A DNA stretch of 24,554 nt from Caldisericaceae bacterium (GTDB taxonomy: Bacteria; Caldisericota; Caldisericia; Caldisericales; Caldisericaceae), in NCBI GenBank assembly GCA_027076005.1, contig JALTHX010000150.1, forward strand, positions 1 to 24,554, in the 5' to 3' direction. The first letter of the stretch is position 1. Every line of letters begins with the position of its first letter. The position numbers and the translations under genes are program-made. The notes below the pieces were generated by a model. The model was not told the origin of the DNA and searched no databases. It saw nothing but the letters and a program-made list of their open reading frames with translations. This document shows positions 19,684-21,991 of the stretch, piece by piece.

Positions 19684-19939
19684 TATCAATCTCTACTATA
19701 ATATAAGAATTAGGGGTCAGCATTTTTAATTTGGTATGAGCAATTTCATCAATTTTTGATAAATCTAAAGCATTATAGTACTGAATACTGAGGTTTCTGT
19801 TTTCTGTTCTAACTGCAGTATAATTATTCGTATATAAATCAATTCTTTTTTCAAGAAGCCGCGTTTTAAATCCAAAGATTTCTCCCATAACGAATAGTAA
19901 GAGTAAAAACGAAGCGAGCAAGTACATCCTTTTTTTCAT
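19673..19939 (-). CDS. ftsL: Cell division protein FtsL-like, 88 aa
   Basis: rsmH-[ftsL]-ftsI slot; basic N-terminus, one TM, coiled-coil, LSKIDEIAHTKLKMLTP tail. Confidence 0.8.
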   Translation of the reverse strand: MKKRMYLLASFLLLLFVMGEIFGFKTRLLEKRIDLYTNNYTAVRTENRNLSIQYYNALDLSKIDEIAHTKLKMLTPNSYIIVEIDNAK

Positions 19940-20814
19940 ATTCTCTCGGCCACCCTTAATTTAGCACTTCTTGAGCGCCTATTAGAAAGAAGTTCTCCTT
20001 CCAACGGCCTTATCACTTTTTTGTTTATTCGGTTTACCCTTTTGTCCTCTCTAAATGCTTTTTTTACAACTCTATCTTCAAGAGAGTGGTAAGAAATTAC
20101 TGCAATCCGAGCATCTTGAGCAAGTATGTCGGGAGCATCCTTCAAAAACATCTCTAAGCTTCCTATTTCATTATTCACAAAGATTCGTAATGCCTGAAAA
20201 GTACGTGTAGCAGGATGAATTTTTCCTCTTTTATGATGATATACGTTAGCTACAATATCTGCAAGTTCCTCTGTAGTTTCTATCTTTTTCTTTCTCCTTC
20301 TATAATCTACTATTGCTTTTGCAATATGCCGGGAGAGTTTTTCCTCGCCAAATTTGAATATAATATCCGCAAGTTCATTTTCAGGAAAACTGTTTACAAC
20401 ATCTGCTGCCGTAAGTTCAGTATGAAAACTCATTCGCATATCAAGGGGCCCATTCTTAATAAAACTGAATCCTCTTCTGTTATAATAGAGCTGCAAAGAT
20501 GAAATCCCTAAGTCGGCAAGTATCCCATTTACCGCGGGTATGTTATATTTTTTTTGTATTGCCTTTATATTTAAAAAATTATCATTTACAAGAAAAAAAT
20601 TATCTCCTGCATTCTTTAACCGTTTATGCGCTATTTTTAAAGCTTCTGAGTCTTGATCTATTCCATACAAAAAACCCGAAGGACCTATAGCCTTAAGTAT
20701 TTCAACGCTATGCCCCCCTTCTCCTACGGTGCAATCAACTACAGTATCTCCTTTTTTGAGATTTAAATTTTCTAATACTTCATTTACTAAAACCGGTGTA
20801 TGTAATATTTCCAT
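19936..20814 (-). CDS. rsmH: 16S rRNA m4C1402 methyltransferase RsmH (MraW)
   Basis: HTPVLVNEV, VDCTVGEGGHS, DLGISSLQL..RGFSF..GPLDMRM, HPATRTFQALRI.VN.E, ISYHSLEDR, NRRSRSAKLR. Start ATG 20814 (probable leaderless) or 20823. Confidence 0.97.
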   Translation of the reverse strand: MEILHTPVLVNEVLENLNLKKGDTVVDCTVGEGGHSVEILKAIGPSGFLYGIDQDSEALKIAHKRLKNAGDNFFLVNDNFLNIKAIQKKYNIPAVNGILADLGISSLQLYYNRRGFSFIKNGPLDMRMSFHTELTAADVVNSFPENELADIIFKFGEEKLSRHIAKAIVDYRRRKKKIETTEELADIVANVYHHKRGKIHPATRTFQALRIFVNNEIGSLEMFLKDAPDILAQDARIAVISYHSLEDRVVKKAFREDKRVNRINKKVIRPLEGELLSNRRSRSAKLRVAERI

Positions 20815-20821
20815 TGCTTTC

Positions 20822-20827
20822 ATTATA
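20822..20827 (-). promoter_or_regulatory. -10 box TATAAT 7 nt before rsmH ATG (putative leaderless dcw promoter)
   Basis: Minus strand TATAAT-GAAAGCA-ATG; no SD; -35 only TTTTAT at 17 nt. Confidence 0.5.
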
Positions 20828-20851
20828 ACTTATTAAGTCCTGATATAAAAG

Positions 20852-21179
20852 CCCGAGTAAAGGATAAGCCGGATTCTGTTGTGCGAACGCTGTGGTCATT
20901 TATCTAATGCGACCAACCCGATGGTATGGAGAGAGCATCCTTTGCCATCCTATTTGGTCTTGCTCCGGGTGGGGTTTACCATACAACGCACTGTTACCAG
21001 AGCGTCTGGTAGTCTCTTACACTGCCTTTTCACCCTTACAGAGAATCTCTGCGGTTTATTTTCTGTGGCACTTTCCCTAAGGTCACCCTCGCCTGGATTT
21101 CCCAGGCACCCTGCTCTCCGGAGTCCGGACTTTCCTCAAGGCATAAACAAATGCCTTGCGACCACCTCCGTTACTCGGG
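20852..21179 (-). ncRNA. rnpB: Bacterial RNase P RNA, type A architecture, about 328 nt, apparently lacking P18
   Basis: GAGGAAAGTCCG and ACAGAATCCGGCTTA (P4); P1 CCCGAGTAA/TTACTCGGG; P3 AAGGCAT/ATGCCTT; P8 GCCTGG/CCAGGC; P9 with GTGA loop; AGTGCCACAGAAAA; AAGGGTGAAA; GGTAAACCCCACCCGGAGCAAG; P6 GAGAGC/GCTCTC. Confidence 0.97.
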
Positions 21180-21180
21180 A

Positions 21181-21897
21181 TTATTTAATTTCTTCCGGAA
21201 AGTAAAGAATCTTTCCGCACACCTCACATCTTATTAACTTTTCCCCTTTACTATCTTTAAGCTCCTCTAAGACCTCCAGGGGGAGCATTGCACCACAATT
21301 TAAACAAGCCCCTTTTTCTATAGGAGAAATCGCTCCATAAGGGAAGCTATCTTTAATTTTCTCATAACGAATCATTATATCTTCGGGGATTTCCTTTGCA
21401 ATTTTTCTGAATTCTTTTTTAAGCTTCGCGGTTTCATTCTTTATCTCTTTGCCAAGAAGTTCCCTTTCTTTATGTATACTTTGCAACCTCTCTTCCTGTT
21501 CCGCCGTTTCTTTCTCTAATTCCTTAATCTGTGACTCTTTTTCCTTTATTGCAGTTTCAGTAAATTCAAGGTTCTTCTCTAACTCCTCGGTTTTAGCCTC
21601 AAGGTTTTCTTTCGTTTTTTTAGCCGCTCTAACTTCTTTGCTTGTCTTAAGTTTATTTCCGTTTAAAAGATCCGTAATACCTTTTAGCTGATCCTTACTC
21701 TCGTCAATATCTCTTCCAATTTCCCTTTTCCTGTTGATAAATCCGGATATCGCAGATTTTAACCCCTCTATCTGATTCTGGATATTTTCAATTTCTTCTT
21801 TTATCTGTAGTTCTTGGTCAATTTCTTTCATTCTTGCTTCTTTATCACGCAAACTTTTTTCTTTTTGTTCAAACTTGTAAAGTAACTTTATATACAT
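21181..21897 (-). CDS. Coiled-coil protein with C-terminal C4 zinc ribbon (COG1579 / zf-RING_7-like)
   Basis: Long E/K-rich coiled-coil, then GACLNCGAMLP...LIRCEVCGKILY. Start set to ATG 21897 (GGAGGTG SD). Confidence 0.9.
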   Translation of the reverse strand: MYIKLLYKFEQKEKSLRDKEARMKEIDQELQIKEEIENIQNQIEGLKSAISGFINRKREIGRDIDESKDQLKGITDLLNGNKLKTSKEVRAAKKTKENLEAKTEELEKNLEFTETAIKEKESQIKELEKETAEQEERLQSIHKERELLGKEIKNETAKLKKEFRKIAKEIPEDIMIRYEKIKDSFPYGAISPIEKGACLNCGAMLPLEVLEELKDSKGEKLIRCEVCGKILYFPEEIK

Positions 21898-21916
21898 TGA
21901 CACCTCCGATTAACAG

Positions 21917-21991
21917 TGGTGGGCCCGCCCGGGTTCGAACCAGGAACCAATTGGTTATGAGCCAACTGCTCTACCGTTGAGCTACGGGCCC
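21917..21991 (-). tRNA. tRNA with CAT anticodon, most likely tRNA-Ile2 (lysidine type); elongator Met not excluded
   Basis: GGGCCCG-TA-GCTC-AACGGTA-GAGC-A-GTTGG-CTCATAA-CCAAT-TGGTT-CCTGG-TTCGAAC-CCGGG-CGGGCCC-A-CCA. G1:C72 excludes the initiator; C4:G69, U12:A23 and A73 favour Ile. Gene certain, isotype about 0.65. Confidence 0.95.

What the first reader, a model, noticed from the sequence alone, without database searches (positions are those of the whole stretch)
20852..21179. Compact type A RNase P RNA apparently lacking helix P18, with a minimal P12
Seen: after the P15 3' strand (GGTC) the sequence runs GCAT-TAGATAAATGACCAC straight into P2 (plus-strand 20914-20892), leaving no room for the roughly 24-nt P18 hairpin of E. 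coli-type RNAs. P12 is about 6 bp with a 3-nt loop (21038-21052), P19 is vestigial, and the total is about 328 nt. Established: P18 is nearly universal in bacterial type A RNA (L18 docks on P8); loss is known in Chlorobi and Archaea. Inference: an independent P18 loss in what looks like a non-Chlorobi, probably thermophilic lineage, implying more reliance on protein or compensating contacts. Novelty for this lineage is unverified.
Basis: partly seen in the sequence, partly recalled or inferred. Interest (0 to 1): 0.7.

Follow-up and report, generated by a model that had tools for sequence, protein, structure and literature searches.

The report
P18-less RNase P RNA of Caldisericia
This is the real, working-looking gene for the tRNA-trimming ribozyme RNase P in a hydrothermal-vent Caldisericota bacterium. 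It does lack the bracing helix P18, but so does every member of its class that I examined. It is therefore a lineage trait of a known kind, not a one-off oddity.

Summary
Window 21177..20850 (minus strand) is a full-length bacterial type A RNase P RNA of 328 nt (Rfam RF00010, 262.8 bits). The covariance model deletes P18 cleanly. P12 is short (8 bp, 3-nt loop) and P19 is a 3-bp stub.

The genome is a vent MAG of the family Caldisericaceae (phylum Caldisericota), despite an NCBI label of "Desulfurellales" on its near twin. All 39 rnpB genes I inspected from six families of class Caldisericia lack P18. All five inspected from the other class of the phylum keep a GNRA-capped P18. The loss is therefore a single, independent event at the base of Caldisericia.

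The partner protein is ordinary: the operon is rpmH-rnpA-yidD-yidC and RnpA is 107 aa with the RNR motif. No protein-only RNase P (HARP) was found.

P18-less type A RNAs are already published for Chlorobium and Aquificales. My pattern scan found 111 more species genomes, labelled with more than ten phylum-level groups. This scan had already noted the same variant in Bacteroidales on other DNA.

The only candidate compensating change is a longer P6 pseudoknot: 6-8 bp here against 4 bp in the P18-bearing sister class. That link is unproven.

Verdict: a new member of a known kind, of modest interest.

The parts
20850..21177 (-). rnpB, bacterial type A RNase P RNA, 328 nt
   Evidence: RF00010 at 262.8 bits, full model. 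On 30 relatives, 92.2% of cells are paired against 34-46% in slid controls, and 75 of 101 pairs show compensatory changes.
20892..20914 (-). P15 3' strand (GGUC), then GCAU, then J18/2 (UAGAUAAAUG), then the P2 3' strand. This is the site of the P18 deletion.
   Evidence: 23 gap columns in the cmscan alignment. The same junction is present in all 39 inspected Caldisericia RNAs. The cmscan alignment of L164 shows 24 model positions matched by 0 residues.
21034..21054 (-). Short P12: 2 + 6 bp with an AA bulge and a 3-nt AUU loop
   Evidence: cmscan alignment and pair list. P12 is also short in the P18-bearing sister class.
21113..21118 (-). P6 pseudoknot 5' strand, GAGAGC (RNA 60-65, in J5/7)
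   Evidence: Complementary to RNA 242-247. Relatives carry GGGAGC/GCUCCC, UGGAGGU/ACCUCCA and AGAAGC/GCUUCU, which are compensatory changes.
20931..20936 (-). P6 pseudoknot 3' strand, GCUCUC (RNA 242-247, in L17)
   Evidence: The potential helix is 6-8 bp in Caldisericaceae. In the P18-bearing sister class I read 4 bp (GGGC/GCCC) by eye from the alignment.
21125..21132 (-). P4 5' strand (AAGUCCGG with the bulged U), catalytic core
   Evidence: Seven P4 pairs at 100% paired across 30 sequences. Six are invariant and one shows compensatory change (helix 5).
20866..20872 (-). P4 3' strand (CCGGCUU)
   Evidence: helix 5.
21083..21086 (-). L9 GNRA tetraloop (GUGA). This is the loop that docks on P1 in type A RNAs, one of the interdomain contacts that remain.
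   Evidence: L9 is a GNRA loop in all 30 aligned relatives (GUGA, GCGA, GAAA, GUAA, GCAA, columns 100-103). Docking itself is inferred from published work (PMC4227106).
20881..20890 (-). Vestigial P19 (3 bp with one mismatch, UUCG loop)
   Evidence: Relatives have 3-6 bp, and families f5/f6 have longer P19 stems.
21181..21903 (-). Upstream neighbour: a 240-aa coiled-coil protein with a weak, sub-threshold match to the CT398-like coiled-coil hairpin domain. Its stop codon lies 3 nt before the rnpB 5' end.
   Evidence: Pfam PF24481 (CT398_CC), E 5.5e-4, 20.3 bits, below the 27-bit cut-off. The synteny is kept in family f1 and appears in several other phyla.
19936..20823 (-). Downstream neighbour: rsmH (mraW), followed by ftsL and a PBP (start of the dcw cluster), beginning 26 nt after the rnpB 3' end
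   Evidence: Pfam PF01795, E 1.2e-101.
21917..21991 (-). tRNA-Met (CAU), upstream of the coiled-coil gene. It is a likely substrate of the enzyme.

Best explanation
The locus encodes the catalytic RNA subunit of a conventional bacterial ribonucleoprotein RNase P, which cuts the 5' leader off tRNA precursors. It is a type A RNA in which helix P18, the strut whose GNRA loop docks on P8 to hold the catalytic and specificity domains together, was excised cleanly. The excision happened in the common ancestor of class Caldisericia.

Shown: all other core elements are kept, namely P1-P5, P7-P17, the P4 and P6 pseudoknots, the GGU of the L15 loop, and J18/2.

Inferred: domain alignment is left to the remaining contacts. 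These are the L8-P4, L9-P1 and L14-P8 contacts, an unusually long P6 pseudoknot, and the small RnpA protein. The G+C-rich helices suit a thermophile.
For: - RF00010 match at 262.8 bits over the full model, with P18 deleted.
- The structure is supported by covariation on 30 relatives: 92.2% of cells paired against 34-46% in slid controls, and 75 of 101 pairs with changes on both sides.
- P4 is 100% paired.
- G260, G261 and U262 of the L15 region and the J18/2 residues are invariant.
- rnpB is present in 30 of 31 relatives and in 80 of 93 genomes of the phylum.
- All 39 inspected Caldisericia RNAs lack P18.
- Five of five inspected RNAs from the sister class keep P18 with a GNRA loop.
- The window's genome has rpmH-rnpA-yidD-yidC. 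RnpA is 107 aa with the RNR motif, PF00825 at 80.6 bits.
- No PIN_5/HARP match in the genome.
- A twin MAG has the same RNA at 98% identity.
- The MFE fold shows no substitute hairpin.
Against: - No expression or activity data exist. No RNA sequencing run holds the stretch.
- Deleting P18 from full-size E. coli RNA lowers RNA-alone activity almost 700-fold (PMC5839562), so compensation must exist, and I have not identified it.
- The genome is only 80% complete, so the absence of a protein-only RNase P is not proven.
- P1 carries a C8.U317 mismatch. It is shared with the twin MAG, so it is real.
Confidence: 0.9

Rival explanations
1. The loss of the L18-P8 strut is compensated within the RNA, mainly by lengthening the P6 pseudoknot (J5/7 pairing with L17) from 4 bp to 6-8 bp. 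The longer helix would rigidify the P5-P7/P15-P17 hub. This adds to the main reading rather than replacing it.
For: - Potential P6 is 6-8 contiguous pairs in all 18 Caldisericaceae RNAs, 6-7 in f2, and 5-7 in f3. Compensatory variants occur: GAGAGC/GCUCUC, GGGAGC/GCUCCC, UGGAGGU/ACCUCCA, AGAAGC/GCUUCU, UGGGCAA/UUGCCCA.
- In the P18-bearing sister class I read GGGC/GCCC (4 bp) by eye from the alignment. It was not run through the helix script.
- Across phyla, the mean longest J5/7-L17 helix is 5.7 in 94 P18-less RNAs and 4.7 in 113 P18-bearing RNAs.
Against: - Families f4 and f5 lack P18 yet reach only 5 bp.
- The cross-phylum comparison is confounded. The searched L17 regions are longer in the P18-less set (29.9 against 23.6 nt), the control set is mostly Proteobacteria, and relatives are not independent.
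- A longer P6 could simply be an adaptation to heat.
- On the MAFFT alignment the P6 columns pair in only 68.6% of cells, because L17 is misaligned between families.
Confidence: 0.2
2. The role of P18 has been taken over by protein, either an altered RnpA or an extra subunit, as proposed for Pop5/Rpp30 in archaeal RNase P.
For: - Archaeal type A RNAs lack P18, and proteins are discussed as its replacement (PMC5839562).
- A coiled-coil protein gene abuts the rnpB 5' end here (3-nt gap) and lies next to rnpB in several other phyla.
Against: - RnpA is of ordinary length (107 aa) and matches PF00825 over positions 10-107 of 109 with a normal score. The same holds across the class.
- Whether the coiled-coil-rnpB synteny also occurs beside P18-bearing RNAs was not examined.
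- No evidence of binding was sought or found.
Confidence: 0.08
3. The gene is a decaying or mis-assembled rnpB, and tRNA 5' maturation is done by a protein-only enzyme.
For: The genome is 80% complete, so a HARP gene could be missed.
Against: - The same P18-less architecture occurs in 39 inspected genomes, including single-contig assemblies.
- There is strong covariation and an invariant catalytic core.
- RnpA is retained in 29 of 31 relatives.
- No PIN_5 match was found.
Confidence: 0.02

Closest known systems
P18-less type A RNase P RNAs of the Aquificales (Persephonella marina, Sulfurihydrogenibium azorense, Thermovibrio, Desulfurobacterium; Marszalkowski et al. 2006, cited in PMC8457005 and PMC4227106)
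   Same: - Type A architecture with P18 missing and J18/2 directly following P15.
- Thermophilic hosts, small genomes and compact RNAs (about 320-330 nt).
- Very short P12 in some members (PMC4227106).
- Desulfurobacterium and Thermovibrio MAGs showed the same junction in my scan.
   Different: - They belong to a different phylum.
- The Caldisericia loss is bracketed by a P18-bearing sister class within its own phylum, so it is a separate event.
- No biochemical data exist for Caldisericota.
- I did not examine whether the long P6 is also present in Aquificales beyond one example (L071, 6 bp).
Chlorobium RNase P RNA (Haas et al. 1994, cited in PMC8457005)
   Same: Type A RNA lacking P18. Two Chlorobium MAGs matched the P18-less junction pattern (L066 and L121).
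   Different: The host is a mesophilic phototroph, the RNA is larger (386 nt in L066), and the phylum is unrelated.
Canonical type A RNase P RNA (E. coli M1 RNA, Thermotoga maritima; Rfam RF00010)
   Same: All core helices, the P4 and P6 pseudoknots, the L15 GGU, the S-domain with P13/P14, and the RnpA cofactor.
   Different: No P18, hence no L18-P8 strut. P12 is 8 bp against 11 bp in the model, P19 is vestigial, and the potential P6 is longer.
Archaeal type A RNase P RNA
   Same: Lacks P18 (PMC5839562).
   Different: Archaeal RNAs work with four or five proteins and score to other Rfam models. This RNA is bacterial in sequence and has the bacterial single protein RnpA.

Membership tests
Bacterial RNase P RNA class A (RF00010) | Covariance-model score above the curated gathering threshold (100 bits) over the full model | tested here: met
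   262.8 bits, model positions 1-367, E 5.6e-85.
Bacterial RNase P RNA class A (RF00010) | P4 pseudoknot with the conserved AAGUCCGG / CCGGCUU strands and a bulged U (catalytic core) | tested here: met
   Seven pairs, 100% paired in 30 sequences (helix 5). Residues 45-53 and 308-313 are invariant or nearly invariant.
Bacterial RNase P RNA class A (RF00010) | P15-P16 internal loop with the GGU that pairs with the tRNA 3'-CCA | tested here: met
   G260, G261 and U262 are invariant in 30 relatives. P15 and P16 are supported by compensatory changes (helices 16 and 17). CCA binding itself was not tested.
Bacterial RNase P RNA class A (RF00010) | Type A specificity domain (P7-P14 with P13 and P14), as opposed to the type B P10.1/P15.1 layout | tested here: met
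   P13 and P14 align to the model. Helices 14 and 15 pair in 91-93% of cells with compensatory changes.
Bacterial RNase P RNA class A (RF00010) | P18 hairpin with a GNRA loop docking on P8 (present in most but not all members) | tested here: not met
   Deleted. It is not strictly defining, because published members in Chlorobium and Aquificales also lack it (PMC8457005).
Bacterial RNase P RNA class A (RF00010) | Cognate RnpA protein encoded in the genome | tested here: met
   PF00825 at 80.6 bits at G000:C81, a 107-aa ORF in an rpmH-rnpA-yidD-yidC operon.
Bacterial RNase P RNA class A (RF00010) | Cleaves pre-tRNA 5' leaders | not testable with these tools
P18-less variant of type A (Chlorobium / Aquificales kind) | J18/2 follows the P15 3' strand within a few nucleotides, with no hairpin between them | tested here: met
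   GGUC-GCAU-UAGAUAAAUG. Twelve unpaired nucleotides in the MFE fold.
P18-less variant of type A (Chlorobium / Aquificales kind) | The trait is shared by the clade and is not a single-genome lesion | tested here: met
   39 of 39 inspected Caldisericia RNAs from six families.

The most novel reading that the evidence does not exclude
Caldisericota offers a clean natural before-and-after pair within one phylum. One class keeps a canonical GNRA-capped P18 and the other lost it once. In this reading, the accompanying lengthening of the P6 pseudoknot from 4 bp to 6-8 bp is the structural compensation that lets a bacterial RNase P RNA do without the L18-P8 strut. More broadly, P18 loss would be a recurrent event across more than ten phylum-level groups that the literature has under-counted.
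Probability: 0.15. Interest if true: 0.5.

Novelty: new member of a known kind. Interest (0 to 1): 0.3.

Why it matters
P18 is treated as a near-universal interdomain strut of bacterial RNase P RNA. Deleting it from full-size E. coli RNA costs almost 700-fold in RNA-alone activity (PMC5839562).

A 2021 paper names only Chlorobium and Aquificales as natural P18-less clades (PMC8457005). This locus adds a whole class, Caldisericia. That class includes the genus I take to be Caldisericum; Caldisericum exile is cultured (from memory).

The sister class still has P18, which gives a tidy comparative system for asking what replaces the strut.

My scan also suggests that P18 loss is much more common than the literature implies. 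For this particular window, though, the feature is simply the normal rnpB of its lineage.

Tried and rejected
1. Sequencing runs. No RNA holder is listed, so nothing can be said about expression. The best DNA holder is a hydrothermal-vent metagenome and may be the source sample.

2. Promoter and terminator scan. There is no sigma-70-like site at a sensible distance from the rnpB 5' end. The gene begins 3 nt after the upstream stop codon, so co-transcription with later processing is possible but untested.

3. P6 length against P18 presence across phyla. There is a small difference (mean 5.7 against 4.7), but it is confounded by region length, a control set dominated by Proteobacteria, and the relatedness of the genomes. 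I treat it as inconclusive.

4. Junction pattern scan. Nine of its 120 hits were false positives. In those Pseudomonadota-labelled (alpha, gamma, Rickettsiales, Legionellales) and Thermodesulfobacteriota-labelled RNAs, the 5' strand of P18 itself reads AGANANATG. I removed them from the count.

5. HARP/PIN_5 search in the window's genome. Nothing was found, but the genome is only 80% complete.

6. Primary papers. The Aquificales papers (PMC1624910, PMC2151030) are not held, so I cite them only through PMC8457005 and PMC4227106.

7. Literature searches. 'Caldisericum' with 'RNase P' returned no paper. A search combining RNase P and P18 with the names of PVC and Caldiserica groups listed no paper that held either RNase P or P18.

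8. Coupling of the short P12 to P18 loss. Rejected, because the P18-bearing sister class has an equally short P12.

Full report
OBSERVATION

cmscan against Rfam finds one RF00010 match (bacterial RNase P RNA, class A) at window 21177..20850 on the minus strand. It scores 262.8 bits (E 5.6e-85) and covers the full model. After the 3' strand of P15 (GGUC) and GCA, the alignment shows 23 consecutive gap columns where the J15/18 tail and P18 belong. It resumes at UUAGAUAAAUG, which is J18/2, and then the 3' strand of P2.

A thermodynamic fold of the 328-nt RNA recovers P1, P2, P3, P5, P7-P9, P12, P13 and P15-P17. It leaves 12 unpaired nucleotides at the junction, so no substitute hairpin is hidden there.

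P12 is 2 + 6 bp with a 3-nt AUU loop, against 11 bp in the model. P19 is a 3-bp stub with one mismatch.

All four descriptive claims hold: no P18, a minimal P12, a vestigial P19, and a length of about 328 nt.

IS IT A REAL, CONSTRAINED RNA?

I aligned the window RNA with 29 relatives (alignment A1). I then counted pairs for a structure transferred from the cmscan alignment, adding P4, P6 and P17 by hand.

- 92.2% of cells form standard pairs, against 34-46% when the 3' partners are slid by 1-3 columns.
- 75 of 101 pairs show changes on both sides.
- P4 is 100% paired.
- The catalytic-core residues, the GGU of the P15/16 loop and J18/2 are invariant.

An independently assembled near-twin MAG (L031) carries the same RNA at 323/328 identity. 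It has the same junction and the same C8.U317 mismatch in P1. Neither feature is therefore an assembly error.

WHOSE GENOME IS IT?

- G014 matches WFZA01000016.1, "Caldisericales bacterium S143_107".
- G011 matches CAYONU010000018.1, "uncultured Caldisericales bacterium".
- G029 matches JAXGMQ010000001.1, "Caldisericia bacterium".

Family f2 has the same junction sequence as records labelled Candidatus Cryosericum or Caldiserica.

G009 is in the same family as the window and is a single contig of 1,558,103 bp. From memory that is the size of the Caldisericum exile genome; I could not verify this here.

The window therefore belongs to Caldisericaceae, class Caldisericia, phylum Caldisericota (lineage). 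The "Desulfurellales bacterium" label on the twin MAG appears to be a submitter mislabel.

A hydrothermal-vent metagenome holds the stretch. rnpB is 51.5% G+C in a 36.5% G+C window, as expected for a structural RNA of a thermophile.

HOW FAR DOES THE DELETION EXTEND?

All 30 aligned RNAs from five families of the class read CGGGU-N5-GC-(N1-2)-UAGAUAAAUG with no P18.

A phylum-wide search found rnpB in 80 of 93 held genomes. I fetched 14 more RNAs.

- Nine further Caldisericia members lack P18. They include the longest ones: f6 at 352-356 nt and G071 at 347 nt. In the two f6 RNAs the extra length lies in P19; I did not locate G071's. For L164 the model shows 24 positions matched by 0 residues.
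- All five inspected RNAs of family f7, the other class of the phylum, have a 7-8-bp P18. It is capped by GUAA, GAAA or GCAA and aligns to model positions 284-303 with high posterior probability.

By parsimony this is one loss on the stem of class Caldisericia, after its split from the P18-bearing class. It is independent of the Chlorobium and Aquificales losses. The trait belongs to the whole class, not to this genome.

The short P12 is shared by the P18-bearing class. It is therefore an older, unlinked feature.

THE PROTEIN PARTNER

PF00825 (RnpA) is found in 29 of 31 relatives. In the window's own genome it is a 107-aa ORF with the KRNRARR motif, in the standard rpmH-rnpA-yidD-yidC operon. 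Its length and score are ordinary.

No PIN_5 (HARP-type protein-only RNase P) match was found in the genome, which is 80% complete.

Nothing points to an unusual protein complement.

HOW COMMON IS P18 LOSS ELSEWHERE?

[quoted passage not shown] A 2014 paper extends this to Hydrogenothermaceae and Desulfurobacteriaceae in general (PMC4227106).

I scanned one genome per GTDB species for a P15...P15'-GC-N(1-3)-AGANANATG junction.

- Twenty hits chosen across phyla all contain RF00010 matches.
- Nine of the 120 are false positives, because a P18 stem happens to read like J18/2.
- The remaining 111 are truly P18-less.

Their labels include:
- the PVC groups: Kiritimatiellia, Pontiella, Verrucomicrobiota and Lentisphaerae/Victivallales;
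- Chlorobium;
- Desulfurobacterium and Thermovibrio;
- Caldisericota, including Cryosericum;
- Fervidibacter, Bipolaricaulota, Dependentiae, Atribacteria, Calditrichota, Gemmatimonadota, Fimbriimonadaceae and Elusimicrobia.

P18 loss is thus recurrent and under-described. This makes the present case less exceptional.

WHAT REPLACES THE STRUT?

Deleting P18 from full-size E. coli RNA lowers RNA-alone activity almost 700-fold (PMC5839562), so some compensation is expected.

The other interdomain elements are retained. L9 is a GNRA loop in all 30 relatives, and L8 and L14 are conserved.

The one systematic difference I saw from the P18-bearing sister class is the P6 pseudoknot.

- The window has GAGAGC/GCUCUC.
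- Other Caldisericaceae have 6-8 contiguous pairs with compensatory variants.
- In the sister class I read GGGC/GCCC (4 bp) by eye from the alignment.

Against this, families f4 and f5 reach only 5 bp. A cross-phylum comparison (means 5.7 against 4.7) is confounded. I rate RNA-intrinsic compensation through P6 as a hypothesis at about 0.2.

CONTEXT

rnpB begins 3 nt after the stop codon of a 240-aa coiled-coil gene with a weak, sub-threshold CT398-like match. It ends 26 nt before rsmH-ftsL-PBP, the start of the dcw cluster. A tRNA-Met gene lies upstream. No consensus promoter sits in front of rnpB, so processing from a longer transcript is possible.

VERDICT

This is the ordinary rnpB of Caldisericia: a new lineage for a known architectural variant, with a useful P18-bearing sister group. 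Interest is modest.

Noticed in passing
window 21181-21903 (-) next to rnpB; also L068, L125, L087, L134, L047, L077, L089 and others: A coiled-coil gene with a weak, sub-threshold CT398-like match ends 3 nt before the rnpB 5' end. tblastn finds homologues adjacent to rnpB in loci labelled Verrucomicrobiota, Calditrichia/Calditrichota, Spartobacteria, Gemmatimonadota, Lentisphaerae and Cryosericum. Earlier scan notes (e1-5330456, e1-4897629) saw the same adjacency. This may be a cross-phylum conserved gene-rnpB transcription unit.
   Followed up: partly
L031 (JALTDI010000112.1) and the window's genome: The near-twin MAG is labelled 'Desulfurellales bacterium' at NCBI. By GTDB kinship the genome sits in the same family as records labelled Caldisericales. 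This is probably a taxonomic mislabel in GenBank.
   Followed up: partly
L077 and L125 (Calditrichota/Calditrichia labels); L091 and L152 (Lentisphaerales/Lentisphaeria labels): These P18-less RNase P RNAs carry very long insertions at the P19 position. The tails between J18/2 and the P4 3' strand are about 114-122 nt in the first two and 60-70 nt in the other two, with self-complementary ends. They could be alternative struts.
   Followed up: no
L039, L052, L060, L061, L082, L085, L088, L135, L143: In these RNAs (labelled Alpha-/Gammaproteobacteria, Rickettsiales, Legionellales and Thermodesulfobacteriota) the 5' strand of P18 reads AGAYAWAUG, nearly the same as the J18/2 consensus. The P18 stem looks like a local duplicate of J18/2, and it fools simple motif scans for P18 loss.
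   Followed up: partly
window 21170 and 20861 (RNA C8 and U317): There is a C.U mismatch in the middle of P1, where close relatives have A-U. The independent twin MAG shares it, so it is a real substitution.
   Followed up: yes
window 20824-20849: Only 26 nt separate the rnpB 3' end from the rsmH start codon. They contain a promoter-like TTTATA-16-TATAAT.
   Followed up: no
L049, L096, L110, L146 (labelled Desulfurellales/Desulfurellaceae): These four further vent MAGs have a P18-less junction followed by a long P19. Their sequences differ from all the Caldisericota families seen here. Their true phylum was not determined.
   Followed up: no
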